From the human T2T-CHM13v2.0 reference genome, Homo sapiens: a DNA stretch of 64,000 nt. Under the pieces are notes generated by a model. The model was not told the origin of the DNA. It worked only from the letters and a program-made list of their open reading frames with translations, and ran no database searches. The stretch lies in assembly GCF_009914755.1 (NCBI RefSeq), contig NC_060928.1; one strand, given 5' to 3'. Made by a program: the position numbers and the translations under genes. The first letter of the stretch is position 1; each line of letters begins with the position of its first letter. Positions 45,706 to 53,049 of this stretch are shown here, one piece after another.

Positions 45706-47399
45706 TGTCAAGTAACAATTATTCAATTATTCATTTTCCATGTTTATCTTATAAAATCATCTTACCATTTATCAAATCCCTTTTTTTCTTTTTAAATAAT
45801 GGAGACAACTTAGGAATTTAGAGAATCACAAAAGACCACATTCCTGGTGAAAACCACTGGAATACTGTCTCCAAGAGTGTTGCATTTTGGCTCATTGTAT
45901 TTTTCATTCAGTGAAAGAACTATTTTTTTAAAAGGAGGACTTTGTGATGGTTCTGAAGTGAAGCCCATGCAGTTTACCAAAAGTGATAGGTAGCAAAATC
46001 ATGAGTTAGGGTAAAACAAAATTCAAAAAACATTTACCCTAAAATGAGGCCTTGAAGGGGCAGGCATAATGTGAAATATGAATTTTATTCAGCAGCCATG
46101 GGTCTTAGATCATAACTTTGTACTAAGGTGAATCTAATATCATTTTTATGAAATTATTGTACATATATTTAGAACATCCTGATAGAAGTATTAAAAAAAA
46201 CATAAAAGAAATCAAAGGTGACTCCAGAGTTGTGACTTTTGAAAATTAGTCCTGCCTCAAATGCAGAAGGAAAGTCCGGATTTGTACCCTAAATATGCTG
46301 GGTATCCCTCTGAGAAACCCATGACTATGTCTAACCCAGACTTTTCCCTGGAAACTGATGAGGAGACACAAAAGCAAAGTGGATGTACATTGCACACTGA
46401 ATGGTGCTGGGGCCAGAGTGGCATTATAGAACCAGAAATGTTGATGAAAAAGAGTGGCTGTCAGAAGAAAGAAACAAGAATGAAGTGATGAGATTAAAAA
46501 AAAAGATCAAGAGATGAGAGAGAGAAAGCCAGAGAGAAAGAGAGAATGAGAATGGAGGGTGGAGAGAGAGAGAGAGAGAGAATGTAAATGAGCAGTCCTA
46601 TGATTTCTGACAATATTCTGTGTCTTGGTTTCAGTCCAACTATTGCTCTTGTCCTTGAATTCCATGAGATAGTAATAAATTCTCTAAGAAGATTCCTTTT
46701 CTTGCACAAGTTGTAGGGACTTTGTAGACATAGAATTTCTAAATAAGACACTATGATTTACTTATGTTTATGCTAACTTTCGCATTTTCTGTAATAGACA
46801 ATTATATTATTCTGTATATTTTGATAGTGGCTTAGTTAACATTCATGCAGCACAGCTTACACTTAAGAACCAGGAGTTTGAACTATGCCTTAAGACACCA
46901 AGAATCATGATGTAATAATCCTTTGTATATATTGTCAAGGGTTTTATACTGAAGACTTTTTTTTAGAGTGTTTGCTTGCTTATTTCTTGTTCTATTTTAA
47001 AAGAATTTGAATAGAGTTGGATTACCAGGTATATCTAAATTAAGCCAGCATTCAATCAGCTATTACTGTCTTCTTATATTAATAAGAAAAATAAAACGAT
47101 ATAGTGGTAAAGGGTTGGGACAGCGAAAATTTTTGGGGGTGATATGGAGAGATAATGGGTGATGTTTCTCAGGGCTGCTTCGAGCGGGATTAGGGGCAGC
47201 GTGGGAACCTAAAGTGGGAGCGATTAAGCTGAAGGAAGATTTTGTGGTAAGGGGTGATATTGTGGGGTTGTTAGAAGAAACATTTGTCATTTAGAATTAT
47301 TGGTGATGGCCTGGATACAGTTTTGTATGAATTGAAAAACCAAACGGAATAAGAGAAGGAGAAAAACAGATATTAAAGGACTAAGAATTGGGAGGACCT

Positions 47400-49807
47400 A
47401 GGACATCTAATTAGAGAATGCCTAAGGAGGTTCAGCATAGCCTTGCCAGCAATGATTATTTATTTACTTTAAGAGTTAAGAGTGGCGGTTTGGGGATAGT
47501 ACCAGGAGATATCAGCTGTGATGGCTTGGAGAAACAGTGTAAACTGGCAGTGTAAACAAGAGCAGGGCATGTATGAGTAGTTGAGAACGGTGAATAGGAG
47601 TATGACTAGACAGAAGATAGTAGGGATGACAAGTTTTTTGGGGCACAGTCTAAGTTGGTCTGGTGTCTGGAATGAGACTAGGGCCTAATAAAAAGGAGTG
47701 TCTATACAGGAGCTTAAATGGGCTGTATCTTGTAGCACTCCGAGGACAGGCCTGAATTCTGATAAGCGAAAGTGGTAAAAGTATTGTCCAGTCCTTTTTA
47801 AGTTGGTGGCTGAGCTTGGTGAGGTGTGTTTTTAATAGAATATTAGTCTGTCACTGAATACTAAGAGCCTGAAAAAATGCTTGGCTGATTTGACTAATAA
47901 AGGCTGGTCTGTTATCAGACTGTATATTGGTGGGAAGGCTAAACTGAGGAATTAAGTCTGGCAGAAGGGAATGACAAGGCTAAACTGGAGAGTTATGTCT
48001 GACAGAAGGGAAGAAATGACTGCAGTGGCCTTCTCAGACCCTGTAGGAAAGGACTCTACTTATCCAGTGAAAGTGTCTACCTAGACTAAGAGGTATTTTA
48101 GTTATCTTACTCCGGGTATGTTGAGTAAAGCTAATTTGCCAGTCCTGTGTGGGGGCAAATCCTTGAGCTTGATGTGTAGGGAAGGGAGGGGGCCTGAATA
48201 ATCCCTGAGGAGTAGTAGAATAGCAGATGGAACACTGAGAAGTGATTTCTTTGAGGATAGATTTCCATGATGGAAAGGAAATGAGAGGTTCTAAGAGGCG
48301 GGCTAGTGGCTTGTACTATAGCATAGCCTGCCTTTGCTGGTGTGTGGTGATTAGGCCTGGTGGAACCGCCATCAATAAACTAAGTGTGATCAGGGTGAGA
48401 AACAGGGAAGAAGGAAATGTGGGGAAATGGGATGAATGTCAGGTGGATCAGAGAGATGCAGTCATGAAGGTCAGGTGTGGTATCAGGAATAATGTGGGAG
48501 GCCGGACTGAAGTCCGGGGCAGGAACAATGGTAATTGTGGACACTTAACAAAGAGTGAGTACAGCTGAAGGAGCCGGGGAGCAGACAGTATATGCATCAG
48601 GTGTGAGTAAGAAAATAGATTTTGGAATTTATGAGAGCTGTAGAGAGTGAGTTGAGCATAGTTTGTGATTTTTAGGGCCTCTAAAAGTATTAAAGCAGTG
48701 GCAGCCGCTGCGGGCAGACATGAGGGCTAGGCTAAAACAGTAAGGTCAAGTTGTTTGGACAGAAAGGCTACAGGGTGTGGTCCTGGCTCTTGTGTAAGAA
48801 TTCTGACAACACTAACCATGCCTAGGAAGGAAAGGAGTTGTTGTTTTGTAAGTGATTGAGGTTTGGGAGATTAACTGGACATGATCAGCAGGGACAGCAC
48901 GTGTGTTTTTATGAGGTATGCCAAGATAGGTAACAGATGAGGATGAAATTTGGGCTTAACTGAAGTAATGGGAGCTATCTGTGAAGACTTGCGACAGTAC
49001 AGCCCAGGTAATTTGCTGAGCCTAATGGGTGTCAGGGTCAGTCTAAGTGAAAGCAAAGAGAGGCTGGGACGAGGAGTGCAGGGGAATAGTGAAAAAAGCA
49101 TCTTTAAGATCGAGAACAGAATAGTAAGTTGTGAAAGAAGGTATTGAGGACAAAAGAGTGTACGGGTTGGGCACCACAGGGTGGATAGGCAAAACAATTT
49201 GGTTGATAAAGTGCAGATCCTAAACTAATCTGTAAGACTTGTCTGGTTTTTGGACAGGTAAAATGGGGGAATTGTAAGGAGAGTTTGTAGGTTTTAGAAG
49301 CCCATGCTGTAGCAGGCGAGTGATAACAGGCTTTAATCTTTTTAAAGCATGCTGTGGGATAGGATATTGGCATTGAGTGGGGTAAGGGTGATTAGGTTTT
49401 AATGGGATGGTAATGGGCTGTGATCGGTTGCCAGGGAAGGAGTAGAGATGTCCTATACTTGTGGGTTAAGGTTGGGGGATACGAGAGGAAGACACGAAGG
49501 AGGCTTTGGGTTGGGGAGAAGGGTGGCAATGAGATGCGGCTGTAGTCCAGGAATAGTCAGGGAAGCAGATAATTTTGTTAAAATATCTCAGCCTAATAAG
49601 GGAACTGGGCAGGTAGGGATAACTAAAAAAGAGTGCATAAGAGTGTTGTCCAAGTTGGCACCAGAGTGGGGGAGTTTTCAGGGGTTTAGAAGCCTGGCAG
49701 TCAATACCCACAACAGTTATGGAGGCAAGGGAAACAGGCCCTTGAAAAGAAGGTAATGTGGAGTGGGTAGCCTCCGTATTGACTAAGGGGACGGACTTAC
49801 CTTCCAC
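47400..49807 (-). pseudogene. pol: HERV-H pro/pol remnants, fragmented
   Basis: VNTEATHSTL degenerate protease site; short broken ORFs only; left boundary approximate. Confidence 0.8.
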
Positions 49808-49887
49808 TGTGAGAGTTACCTGAAGCTCGGCGTCCGTGATGGTCTACGGAGCTTCCGAGGTGATCAGGCAGCGTCAGTCTTCAGCTG

Positions 49888-50214
49888 CTAAGCAGAGAAG
49901 GAGTCAGTCAGAGAGCCTTGGGCCAGAGTTCCAGGGTCTCTGGGAGTGGCTGCCAGGTGAGTTGAACAGTCTGATTTCCAGTGGGGTCCTGCACAGATGG
50001 GACACGGCTTAGGAGGAATCCTGGGCTGCAGGCATTCCTTGGCCTGGTGGTCAGATTTCTGGCACTTGTAGCAAGCTCCTGCGGGAGGAGGTTCTGGAGG
50101 AACACCTGGCCACTGCGGTTCAGGCGTTTGGAAGTTCTTGTGTGCTGGAGAAGTGGCTGGGGTTTGTCTCACAGTGGAGGCAAGGAATTGCAACTGTTTT
50201 CTATTATTGTACAC
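49888..50214 (-). pseudogene. gag: HERV-H gag nucleocapsid remnant
   Basis: Two CCHC knuckles, CYKCQKSDHQAKEC and CPICAGPHWKSDC. Confidence 0.92.
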
Positions 50215-51176
50215 CTTGAAGGAGAGGTTAATTAAATCCTGTTGTGGGGTTTGAGGGCCAGAATTTAATTTTTGGAGTTTTATTTAATGTCGGGAGCAGA
50301 TTGGGTAATAAAATGTATTTTGAGAATAAGACGGCCTTTTGACCTTTTAGGGTCTAGGGCTGTAAAGTGTCTCAGGGTTGCTGCCAAACAAGTCATGAAC
50401 TGGGCTGGATTTTTATATTTGATGAAAAAGAGCCTAAACGCTATCTGATTTGGGATAAAGAAAAAGGAGCATTAACCTTGACTATGCCTTTAGCTCCAGC
50501 CACCTTTTTAAGAGTAAATTGCTGGGCAGGTGGGGGAGGGCTAGTCACGGAATGAAACTGTAAGCCAGACCCGGTGTGAGGAGGGGAGGTAATAAAAGGA
50601 TTATAGGGTGGAGGAGCAGAGGCTGAGGAAGAATTGGGAACTAGCTCGGCCTGGCGAGGAGCAGCCTGGGAGGAGGGGAGAGGTCAGATGGGTCTGTAGA
50701 AAAGGAAGATTAGAAAGACTCAGCGACACTTGGGGTTGGGACTGAGGGGACAGGCGGGAGGGAAAGAAGGAAGATTTGGGACGAGTTGCACTGGGCACAG
50801 AGACTAGGGAGGGACCGATATGTAAAAGAATGCCTGGACGTCAGGCACCTCAGACTGTTTGCCCATTTTATGACAAGAATTATTTAGATCTTGCAGGATG
50901 GAAAAATTGAAAGTGCCGTTTTCTGGCTATTTGGAACTACTGTCGAGTTTGTATTGGGGTCAAGTGGCATTGCAGAAGAAAATAAGGCACTTAGGTTTTA
51001 GGTCAGGTGTGAATTGAAGAGGTTTTAAGTTTTTGAGAACACAGGCCAAAGGAGAAGAAGGAGGAATGGAGGGTGGAAGTTTGCCTATAGTGAAGGAAGC
51101 AAGCCCAGAGAAAAGAGAGAGTAGAGACATGGAGGGAAGGGGTTCGGGGGTTCTTACCTTCTAGAAAAGCGGGAAA

Positions 51177-51440
51177 GGGGTTGGGGCATGGATATAAGGG
51201 ATTGGGGCGCAGAGATAAGAGGTCGGGACGTGGAAACAAGGGATGGGGCGCAGAGATAAGAGGTCGGGGCATGGAAATAAGGGATCGGGGTGCAGAGATA
51301 AGAGGTTGGGGCACAGAAATAAGGGATTGGGGTGCAGAGATAAGAGGTCAGGGTGCAAAAATAAGGGATTGGGGCACAGAGATATAAGAGGTTGGGGCAC
51401 GGAAATAAGGGATTGGGGCACAGAGAAACAAGGTTGGGGT
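51177..51440. repeat. About 12 x 21-bp G-rich tandem repeat in the HERV-H leader
   Basis: Alternating ggattggggyrcagagataag / aggtyggggcayggaaataag units. Confidence 0.9.
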
Positions 51441-51883
51441 ACTTACCCCTCCTCTGGAAAAGCAGGACTTGCCGCTAAGAGTGAAGGAGAAGGGTTTGGG
51501 GGTTTCTTGCCCCCCGGAAAGGTAGAGAAGGGGTAGAGACATGGAGAGAAGGGGTTGGGGTACTTGCCCCTTCCCCAGAAAAGCGAGACTTGCCGCTAAG
51601 GGTGAAGGACAAAGGCAGGCGTCCCTGTGTGGTCTGACACCTCTGAAACATGGTTGAATAATCAGAGAGGCATCCCTGCAATAATTAAACACCAAGGGAA
51701 GGCTGCCTTCCCTAGTCCGTGACCGACACCGGAGTTTTGGGTCCACAGATAAAACGTGTCTCCTTTGTCTCTACCAGAAAATGAAAGGAATTGAAATTAA
51801 GAGAAGGGAGAGATTGAAGAGTGGAAAGGAGAAAGTGGTTGAGGGACAGTGAGAGAGGTTGGAGAAGAGAGTACGAAGAGGTC

Positions 51884-51892
51884 GCTTACCTG
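51884..51892 (-). promoter_or_regulatory. HERV-H major splice donor
   Basis: AATCAG|GTAAGC about 150 nt downstream of the LTR. Confidence 0.8.
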
Positions 51893-52015
51893 ATTTAAAA
51901 TTGGTGAGATGTTCCTTGGGCTGGTGGGTCTGAGGACCTGAGATCGTAGGTGGATCTTTTTCATGGAGCAAAGAGCAGGAGGACAGGGGATTGATCTCCC
52001 AAGGGAGGTCCCCCG

Positions 52016-52033
52016 ATCTGAGTCACGGCACCG
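52016..52033 (-). other. Primer-binding site, tRNA-His type
   Basis: CGGTGCCGTGACTCAGAT, two mismatches to TGGTGCCGTGACTCGGAT. Confidence 0.9.
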
Positions 52034-52035
52034 AA

Positions 52036-52442
52036 TTTCATGCGCGTCCCTGTGAAGAGACAACCTAACAGGCTTTGTGTGAGCAATAAAGCTTTTAATC
52101 ACCTGGGTGCAGGTGGGCTGAGTCCGAAAAGAGAGTCAGCGAAGGGAGATGGGGTTGGGCCGTTTTATAGGATTTGGGTAGGTAAAGGAAAATTACAGTC
52201 AAAGGGGGGTTGTTCTCTGGCAGGCAGAGTGGGGGTCACAAGGTGCTCAGTAGGGGAGCTTTTGAGCCAGGATGAGGCAGGATAAGGAACTTCACAAGAC
52301 AATGTCATCAGTTAAGGCAGGAACAGGCCATTTTCACTTTTGTGGTGGAATGTCATCAGTTAAGGCAGGAACTGGCCATCTGGTTGTGTATGTGCAGGCC
52401 GCAGGGGATATGATGGCTTAGCTTGGGCTCAGAGGCCTGACA
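52036..52442 (-). promoter_or_regulatory. LTR7 (5' LTR, 407 bp)
   Basis: TGTCAGGCCTCTGAGCCCAAGCTAAGCC...GCGCATGAAA; two CCTGCCTTAACTGATGACATT repeats, TATAAAA box, ATTAAA poly(A) signal. Confidence 0.96.
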
Positions 52443-53049
52443 ATTACCATATGTAAACATTGGTCTCAACACTAAGCATACAAGAATACACAGAAGGCAA
52501 TTTATGATCTAGTTTGGGATCTAGGATATACACATCAGACATTGCCCATTGTAGGGAGCAACTGGCAAATGAATTATATAAATAATGAGGTTGGAGAAGG
52601 AAGATATCATTTTCAGTACCCATGGTGAAGAAAACTTTTATTTGTTAAAAACGATATCGTGCAGTAAATGTTTATTGAACACTATCCATAGCCAGGACAG
52701 GTTCTGACACTAGGAATACCAAAATCAAATAACACAATGTTATTAAGACCCAAAAACATTATAGAACTAAACAAATATAATGCAATGTGCTAAATGTTAT
52801 CATTAAGGCATTAATATTGTACTTCGGGGGTTCAAAAGAGAGTTTCTACTCTTCCAGAGAAGTAAGGAATGGTGTTGAAGCACAGCTGTATTTTTGGTGG
52901 ATTAGGAAGAAGTAGTAAGAGTACATCAGGCAAAATAGGCATAAAAAATAGGTTGTTCTCAGCAAAAGAAGGATTCATGTGCTTGGGTTTTCAGCAGGCT
53001 GAGTAGGGCGGGGCAAGGTGTTTTAAAATGCAAGTTTTATTATTATTAT

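What the first reader, a model, noticed from the sequence alone, without database searches (positions are those of the whole stretch)
47062..52447. HERV-H with one LTR but a perfect TSD: apparent integration of a one-LTR cDNA using a cryptic att site at the PPT
Seen in sequence: the element reads ATTAC|TGTCTTCTTATATTAATAAG...GAGGCCTGACA|ATTAC. The 3' LTR is entirely absent, the viral strand ends at ...ATAAGAAGACA in the polypurine tract, and the ends form a TGTC/GACA inverted repeat with a 5-bp TSD. From memory, HERV-H normally continues ...AAGACA-GGAA-TGTCAGG into the 3' LTR, and integrase removes 2 nt after a terminal CA at each end. Inference: the structure equals a one-LTR genome opened at the PPT/U3 junction with 2 nt trimmed from each end (GG and AA). 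It would then be a product of failed strand displacement or a one-LTR circle, not a later deletion, which would usually remove the TSD or leave LTR remnants. Caveat: the last TSD base (C, 47066) also matches the viral consensus, so only 4 bases are independent evidence.
Basis: partly seen in the sequence, partly recalled or inferred. Interest (0 to 1): 0.75.

Follow-up and report, generated by a model that had tools for sequence, protein, structure and literature searches.

The report
One-LTR HERV-H insertions ending at the polypurine tract
This HERV-H copy was inserted with only one LTR, its other end sitting in the polypurine tract, and at least eight other copies in the same genome have the same structure, so it is a recurrent integration product rather than a later deletion.

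Summary
On the minus strand, window 47067-52442 holds a 5,376-bp HERV-H: 5' LTR, His-type primer binding site, and an internal region that stops at ...AAGACA in the polypurine tract (PPT). There is no 3' LTR. ATTAC flanks both ends (47062-47066 and 52443-52447).

The structure recurs. An exact-motif census of the same genome found 10 copies that have a 5' LTR and stop at the PPT.
- Eight end at the same AAGACA with a perfect 5-bp target-site duplication (TSD), a different one at each locus.
- One ends 4 nt later, at ...GGAA, with a perfect 5-bp TSD.
- One has no TSD.

Two targets lie inside repeats (an Alu and an L1-like repeat). Other copies of those repeats show the flanks overlapping by exactly 5 nt, which serves as a built-in empty site.

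For comparison:
- 347 copies carry the same motif followed by the normal LTR junction.
- Normal proviruses have 5-bp TSDs (4 of 5 tested) and end in ...GAAA, not CA (22 of 22).
- The mirror class, starting at the primer binding site with no 5' LTR, was not found (0 of 22 flagged, against 394 normal).
- The one-LTR copies are scattered on a tree, so they are independent events.

Best reading: integrase inserted a one-LTR reverse-transcription product, using the CA that lies 2 nt before the plus-strand origin. Whether that product was linear or a circle is unresolved. Nine searches of the held paper library found no description of this class.

The parts
47062..47066 (.). Target-site duplication, copy next to the PPT end (ATTAC on +, GTAAT in viral sense)
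   Evidence: identical to 52443-52447.
47067..47085 (-). 3' terminus of the element: the polypurine-tract end, viral sense ...TTATTAATATAAGAAGACA. The last CA serves as the surrogate viral end.
   Evidence: The same 19-mer is followed by GGAAYGTCAGG (LTR start) in 347 other copies.
47067..52015 (-). HERV-H internal region of the common, roughly 5-kb deleted form, complete up to the PPT
   Evidence: sequence; collinear at 88-95% identity with four other copies; last 300 nt 94-96% identical to 39 other copies.
52016..52033 (-). Primer binding site of the His-tRNA type (name recalled), preceded by TT at 52034-52035
   Evidence: The pattern GAAATT plus PBS occurs in 394 copies; this copy differs from that pattern at two positions.
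52036..52442 (-). Complete 5' LTR (407 nt), starting TGTCAGG and ending ...GCGCATGAAA
   Evidence: It is the only LTR of this family in the window.
52443..52447 (.). Target-site duplication, copy next to the 5' LTR (ATTAC on +)

Best explanation
This is a primary insertion product. A HERV-H reverse transcript carrying only one LTR was inserted by the viral integrase in a normal concerted reaction, which made the 5-bp duplication. The left end was the ordinary U3 end (provirus starts TGTCAGG). The right end was not U5 but the polypurine tract. In two-LTR copies the sequence reads ...AAGACA-GG|AA-TGTCAGG. By analogy with other retroviruses, plus-strand DNA starts at AA, two bases before the proviral TG. 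A DNA end, or an integrase cut, at that plus-strand origin therefore presents ...GACA followed by two bases, which is the form of a retroviral end before 3' processing. Its last four bases, GACA, match the transferred strand of the U3 end (...CCTGACA). Integrase joined that CA to the target. Shown here: the structure, its recurrence at single-base precision, the family-typical 5-bp TSDs, intact host DNA, independent origins, and the absence of the mirror-image class. Inferred: the 2-nt trimming, and the precursor. The precursor was either (a) a linear molecule in which the displaced minus-strand LTR was never copied and was lost, or (b) a one-LTR circle or nicked circle cut by integrase at the PPT/U3 junction, whose GACA-4 nt-TGTC layout resembles an LTR-LTR circle junction. 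About 2% of HERV-H copies with this exact PPT motif belong to the class.
For: (1) Structure at this locus. (2) Recurrence. Exact-motif scans, with chance hits removed (8 of 11 fetched were not HERV-H), gave 10 copies with a 5' LTR and no 3' LTR. Eight end at AAGACA, with TSDs GTAAT, GTGTT, GTCAG, GTTGC, TGGAC, CTGAT, ATAGC and GGAAC. One ends at AAGACAGGAA with TSD CTTAC. One has no TSD. (3) Ordinary HERV-H also makes 5-bp TSDs: 4 of 5 two-LTR copies tested. (4) Built-in empty sites. The flanks of the C9 copy overlap by exactly 5 nt on 3 Alu copies in the window. The flanks of the C16 copy overlap by exactly 5 nt on 2 of 3 shared L1-like copies. (5) Independence: on a tree of 61 copies, the 9 one-LTR rows need 9 changes, and the sister of this copy is a normal two-LTR copy with support 100/99. 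(6) Asymmetry: 0 of 22 flagged hits start at the PBS without a 5' LTR, against 394 normal copies. (7) Background from papers. HIV-1 integrase cleaves the LTR-LTR junction palindrome internally (PMC1905944, abstract read). Part of the one-LTR circles arise during reverse transcription (PMC3766001, passages).
Against: No orthologous empty site was available for this locus (flanks unique; no other primate genome held). One of the 10 copies (C19:30.96 Mb) has no TSD, and it also has internal deletions. One copy ends 4 nt later, after AA rather than CA, so the rule is not absolute. The TSD starts with GT in 4 of 8 one-LTR copies against 2 of 22 normal 3' flanks (Fisher p = 0.03), which the model does not explain. 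For four copies only the two ends were read, not the middle. No enzyme activity was tested. The census needs an exact 16- to 19-nt motif, so the frequency is approximate.
Confidence: 0.82

Rival explanations
1. Ordinary two-LTR proviruses at each locus later lost exactly GGAA plus the 3' LTR by deletion, leaving the TSD untouched.
For: Deletions are common in old proviruses. One PPT-terminated copy (C19) has no TSD and has internal deletions, so it may be such a case.
Against: It would need the same two break points, at single-base precision, in 8 independent loci, with no homology between ...AAGACA|GG and the LTR end ...GAAA| to drive it. No mirror-image loss of the 5' LTR was found. No LTR remnant lies in the window or in the 0.9-2 kb flanks of the four fully fetched copies.
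Confidence: 0.04
2. Insertion without integrase, at least at the PPT end: the PPT end was joined by host repair or annealing through microhomology, as in the integrase-independent Tf1 pathway.
For: The first TSD base is G, the same as the next viral base, in 5 of 8 copies, and GT is over-represented. Tf1 lacking integrase inserts at sites with homology to its PPT and PBS (PMC11042837, passages).
Against: Nine of 10 copies have an exact 5-bp duplication, the length typical of the family, with host sequence intact. Repair-mediated joining of one end usually brings deletions or TSDs of variable length (recalled, not checked here). Three TSDs start with T, C or A.
Confidence: 0.07
3. Copies of one founder spread by segmental duplication or by re-mobilisation of a one-LTR master; or an assembly artefact; or a chance match.
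For: None specific.
Against: Flanks and TSDs differ at every locus. The copies are scattered among two-LTR copies on the tree. An element without a 3' LTR cannot supply the 3' R and U3 needed to rebuild a 5' LTR (established retroviral replication). The chance P is about 1e-26.
Confidence: 0.01
4. A processed pseudogene of a HERV-H transcript made by LINE-1.
For: Known for other HERV families (recalled).
Against: The element starts at the first base of U3, not at R. It has no poly(A) tail, and its TSD is 5 bp.
Confidence: 0.01

Closest known systems
Canonical HERV-H provirus (LTR7-type LTR, internal region, LTR)
   Same: Same 5' LTR start (TGTCAGG), primer binding site, internal region, PPT and 5-bp TSD.
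   Different: The 3' LTR and the four bases before it are absent. The right terminus is ...GACA instead of the family's normal ...GAAA.
Integrase use of aberrant or internal viral ends in experimental retroviruses (RSV and HIV end or PPT mutants; recalled, not read here)
   Same: One normal end plus a surrogate end chosen next to a CA, with a TSD of normal length.
   Different: Those are small end changes in engineered or drug-selected viruses. Here a whole LTR is missing, the site is the natural PPT, and the events are germ-line fossils recurring at about 2% of copies.
Integrase cleavage of the LTR-LTR junction of two-LTR circles (PMC1905944, abstract; PMC1180852 and PMC4372172, search listing only)
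   Same: An internal site with inverted viral termini four bases apart is cut so that a circle becomes an integration substrate. The PPT/U3 junction GACA-GGAA-TGTC has that layout.
   Different: The substrate here would be a one-LTR circle and a pseudo-junction. Nothing in the sequence tells a circle from a linear precursor.
Solo LTRs and truncated proviruses formed after integration
   Same: Also lack part of the provirus.
   Different: Solo LTRs keep an LTR between the TSDs and lose the interior. Random truncations lose a TSD or host DNA. Here the interior is complete and both TSD copies are intact.
Integrase-independent Tf1 insertion via PBS/PPT homology (PMC11042837, passages)
   Same: The PPT end of the cDNA takes part in the choice of joint.
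   Different: Those insertions keep both LTRs or form tandems, and they depend on homology. Here there is one LTR and a standard TSD.

Membership tests
HERV-H provirus | LTR of the family at the 5' end, starting TG | tested here: met
   407-nt LTR at 52036-52442, collinear with the LTRs of other copies.
HERV-H provirus | His-type primer binding site and homologous internal region up to the PPT | tested here: met
   The PBS differs at two positions from the pattern found in 394 copies. The tRNA name is recalled.
HERV-H provirus | 3' LTR following GGAA after the PPT | tested here: not met
   host DNA follows AAGACA, and there is no second LTR in the window.
HERV-H provirus | 5-bp target-site duplication | tested here: met
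   for this copy; for 4 of 5 normal copies.
Post-integration truncation or deletion | Break points differ between loci; a TSD or host DNA is lost | tested here: not met
   identical break point in 8 loci, TSDs intact, host repeats continuous.
LINE-1-made processed HERV pseudogene | Starts in R, ends in poly(A), long variable TSD | tested here: not met
Integrase-mediated insertion through a surrogate viral end | Terminal CA at the joint and a TSD of the length typical of the virus | tested here: met
   (8 copies; a ninth ends in AA, like the natural U5 end seen).
Integrase-mediated insertion through a surrogate viral end | Dependence on integrase activity and on a defined DNA precursor | not testable with these tools
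   No biochemical or cell assay was possible. Which precursor was used, circle or linear, stays open.

The most novel reading that the evidence does not exclude
In HERV-H the PPT/U3 boundary acts as a second attachment site, because a CA sits exactly two bases before the plus-strand origin and mirrors the U3 terminus. One-LTR circles or nicked-circle reverse-transcription intermediates are normally regarded as dead ends. In this virus, integrase could open them there and insert them. The human genome would then hold a fossil record of circular retroviral DNA serving as an integration substrate in the germ line, at a rate of about one in fifty fixed insertions.
Probability: 0.3. Interest if true: 0.85.

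Novelty: new variant of a known kind. Interest (0 to 1): 0.72.

Why it matters
The finding defines a distinct, recurrent class of endogenous retrovirus insertion: 5' LTR plus a full interior, ending at the PPT, with a TSD. Annotation would otherwise file these copies as damaged proviruses.

Each copy preserves an abortive or alternative end of reverse transcription and shows how loosely an extinct integrase read its DNA ends. The natural U5 end of this family is AA, and the surrogate end is a canonical CA.

It gives a testable rule: the class should appear only in retroviruses with a CA two bases before the plus-strand origin.

There are practical consequences. These copies cannot be dated by LTR divergence. 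They cannot collapse to solo LTRs. Because they lack the 3' LTR polyadenylation region, transcripts from their LTR should run into host DNA, which matters for LTR7-driven non-coding RNAs.

Tried and rejected
- Empty site for this locus: both 300-nt flanks are unique in the genome, so there is no paralogous empty site. No other primate genome was available.
I then fetched short windows around the expected ends. As a result the middle of four one-LTR copies was not read, and later searches returned coordinates only.
- The 16-mer scans brought chance hits, as their reversed-pattern controls predicted. Eight of the 11 fetched were not HERV-H and were dropped.
- Three apparent candidates were ordinary two-LTR copies: two have Alu insertions in the PPT and one has a small insertion.
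- Ten or more hits reading ...AAGACAGGAATAGGCC are an internal repeat of the motif in longer copies, not 3' ends.
- A scan allowing one mismatch in the motif found no further members, but its sensitivity for such copies is only about 40%.
- The apparent GGAA end of the C5:22.2 Mb copy turned out to be a host TSD (GGAAC) that mimics the viral bases.
- The idea that all joints read ACA-GT was partly an ascertainment effect of the first pattern. A weak excess of GT remains.
- Literature: searches, plus passages of PMC6629862 and PMC4724089, gave no description of this class. Subscription-journal papers on RTVL-H/HERV-H structure are not in the library and were not seen.
Full report
**1. The observation**

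Read on the minus strand, the element starts at 52442 with TGTCAGGCCTCTGAG. It carries a 407-nt LTR that ends ...GCGCATGAAA at 52036. TT and an 18-nt His-type primer binding site (52033-52016) follow. About 4.9 kb of internal HERV-H sequence then runs to ...TTATTAATATAAGAAGACA, ending at 47067.

The pentamer ATTAC (+ strand) lies directly outside both ends, at 47062-47066 and 52443-52447. The finding's span therefore includes both copies of the duplication, and the element proper is 47067-52442 (5,376 bp). No other piece of this LTR or of the internal region occurs in the 64-kb window.

**2. What is missing**

The window's genome can be searched. The last 300 nt of the element match at least 39 other copies at 94-96% identity (1,155 first-look candidates, 40 scored, one of them the window's own copy).

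Of the 29 other top loci (30 were read, one being the window's own), 25 have an LTR start directly after AAGACA, reading GGAA(T/C)GTCA... in 24 of them. Three had no LTR there, and one did not match the motif. Genome-wide, the exact 19-mer followed by GGAAYGTCAGG occurs 347 times. This copy therefore lacks exactly GGAA plus the whole 3' LTR.

**3. The structure recurs**

I scanned for the PPT-end motif followed by anything other than the LTR start.
- Chance hits were removed: 8 of the 11 fetched were not HERV-H, in line with the reversed-pattern controls.
- Two copies with Alu insertions in the PPT and one with a small insertion were removed, because the LTR follows in all three.
- That left ten copies with a 5' LTR, an internal region running up to the PPT, and no 3' LTR.

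Both ends of each were read.

| Locus | Element ends at | Target-site duplication (viral sense) |
|---|---|---|
| This copy | AAGACA | GTAAT |
| C4:155.14 Mb | AAGACA | GTGTT |
| C9:118.97 Mb | AAGACA | GTCAG |
| C3:57.35 Mb | AAGACA | GTTGC |
| C5:96.67 Mb | AAGACA | TGGAC |
| C16:53.64 Mb | AAGACA | CTGAT |
| C23:112.50 Mb | AAGACA | ATAGC |
| C5:22.21 Mb | AAGACA | GGAAC |
| C7:147.42 Mb | AAGACAGGAA | CTTAC |
| C19:30.96 Mb | AAGACA | none (also has internal deletions) |

Element lengths are 5.3-5.8 kb, and 4.1 kb for C19. For four copies (C5:96.67, C16, C23, C5:22.21) only the ends were read. Nine perfect 5-bp matches out of ten cannot be chance.

**4. Controls**

- **Normal TSD length.** Ordinary two-LTR copies also have 5-bp duplications, in 4 of 5 tested. 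The fifth had none.
- **Normal right end.** The normal proviral right end is ...GCATGAAA in 22 of 22 copies where an LTR end was found. The family's natural U5 terminus is therefore AA and not the usual CA.
- **Alu target.** The C9 copy sits in an Alu. Its two flanks align to three Alu copies of the window with exactly five bases of overlap.
- **L1-like target.** The C16 copy sits in an L1-like repeat. On three repeat copies hit by both flanks, the overlap is exactly five bases in two and is off by seven bases in the third.
- These two loci act as built-in empty sites. They show a true 5-bp duplication with no host DNA lost, and they show that the first duplicated base is host and not viral.
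- **Independence.** On a tree of the last 1.2 kb of 61 copies, the nine one-LTR rows need nine changes (shuffled mean 8.5). This copy's sister is a normal two-LTR copy, with support 100/99. The bootstrap had not fully settled, and the sample is biased toward copies close to this one.
- **Mirror class.** Elements starting at the primer binding site with no 5' LTR were sought with a pattern that flags about three quarters of random upstream sequences. All 22 flagged hits were LTR-end variants, against 394 normal copies.

**5. Mechanism**

A later deletion would have to hit the same two phosphodiester bonds in eight loci without any homology to guide it, and would have to spare the duplication each time. 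LINE-1 retrotransposition does not fit either, because the element starts at the first base of U3, has no poly(A) tail and has a 5-bp duplication.

An element without a 3' LTR cannot itself give rise to a copy with a rebuilt 5' LTR. Each copy must therefore be a fresh by-product of a normal parent, which agrees with the tree.

The duplication length points to the family's own integrase. In normal copies the junction reads ...AAGACA-GG|AA-TGTCAGG. By the general rule that two bases are lost from each end of linear retroviral DNA (established knowledge, not tested here), plus-strand DNA starts at AA. A DNA end at that origin would be ...GACAGG, that is, a CA followed by two bases. Its last four bases, GACA, are those of the transferred strand of the U3 end (...CCTGACA).

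The element ends exactly at that CA. I read this as the mark of 3' processing and strand transfer at a DNA end, or an integrase cut, located at the plus-strand origin.

Two precursors fit equally well.
- **Linear molecule.** The displaced minus-strand LTR was never copied and was lost.
- **One-LTR circle or nicked circle.** Integrase opened it at the PPT/U3 junction, whose GACA-4 nt-TGTC layout resembles an LTR-LTR junction.

Two published results bear on the circle route. HIV-1 integrase can cut such a junction internally (PMC1905944, abstract). Some one-LTR circles arise during reverse transcription (PMC3766001, passages).

The C7 copy ends four bases later, after AA. It resembles the natural ...GAAA U5 end and shows some play in the choice of end.

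**6. What is not explained**

- The duplication begins with GT in 4 of 8 one-LTR copies, against 2 of 22 normal 3' flanks (Fisher p = 0.03). The first search pattern required a G, but the later patterns covered all bases, so this is not purely ascertainment. It could be a target preference of an asymmetric complex, or a trace of microhomology with the viral GG.
- The integrase-independent, homology-guided route known for Tf1 (PMC11042837, passages) is a rival for that reason. It does not predict exact 5-bp duplications.

**7. Frequency and novelty**

With the exact motif there are 10 one-LTR copies, 9 of them with a duplication. Against these stand 347 copies with the exact normal junction, plus a few dozen with point-mutated junctions. 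That is roughly 2%. The figure is approximate, because the census needs an exact 16- to 19-nt motif.

Nine full-text searches found no description of PPT-terminated one-LTR HERV-H insertions with duplications. Neither did passages of two HERV-H/HERV classification papers. Older subscription papers on this family are outside the library.

Integrase using surrogate ends is known from experimental systems (recalled). I therefore rate this a new variant of a known kind. It is interesting because it is natural, recurrent and precise, and because it makes a prediction for other retroviruses.

**8. This locus**

The terminal branch of this copy is 0.019 substitutions per site. At a recalled neutral rate of 1-2 x 10^-9 per site per year, this suggests an age of no more than roughly 10-20 million years. 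That is a rough inference only.

Noticed in passing
Loci L002-L030 (3' LTR ends); window 52036-52039: HERV-H proviruses end in ...GCATGAAA before the host flank in 22 of 22 copies. The natural U5 terminus is therefore AA rather than the near-universal CA, while the U3 side has the usual TG.
   Followed up: partly
e.g. L065:943-1032; G000 C2:117565853, C3:58635081, C11:37722511, C18:74525669 and others: At least ten longer copies hold a second, internal copy of the PPT-end motif, followed by GGAATAGGCC... instead of the LTR. This looks like env-region sequence. Two direct repeats of about 25 nt, one inside and one at the 3' end, could have mediated the common loss of the env region.
   Followed up: no
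L042 (C11:70.23 Mb) and L076 (C5:98.94 Mb): Two independent Alu insertions landed within a base or two of each other inside the PPT. Each has a poly(A) tail and the LTR resumes after it, which suggests the A-rich PPT is a favoured LINE-1 endonuclease target.
   Followed up: partly
TSDs of the eight AAGACA-ended copies: The duplication starts with GT in 4 of 8 and with G in 5 of 8, against GT in 2 of 22 normal 3' flanks (p = 0.03). Unexplained.
   Followed up: partly
L002/L085 (C4:135.44 Mb): A normal two-LTR copy whose flanks (TAATC and ATGGT) show no duplication. It may be a product of recombination between proviruses.
   Followed up: no
L067/L091 (C19:30.96 Mb): A copy that ends at the same AAGACA but has no duplication (GAGGG against CGACT), has internal deletions and sits on a long branch. 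It may be a true deletion, or a rearranged member of the class.
   Followed up: partly
window 49542-50043 and 55731 onward: The hub's table places a RefSeq enhancer inside the element's interior, and a predicted lncRNA on the same strand ends 3.3 kb upstream of the 5' LTR. Lacking a 3' LTR, this element has no terminator of its own, so LTR-driven transcripts would run into host DNA left of 47062. Not examined.
   Followed up: no
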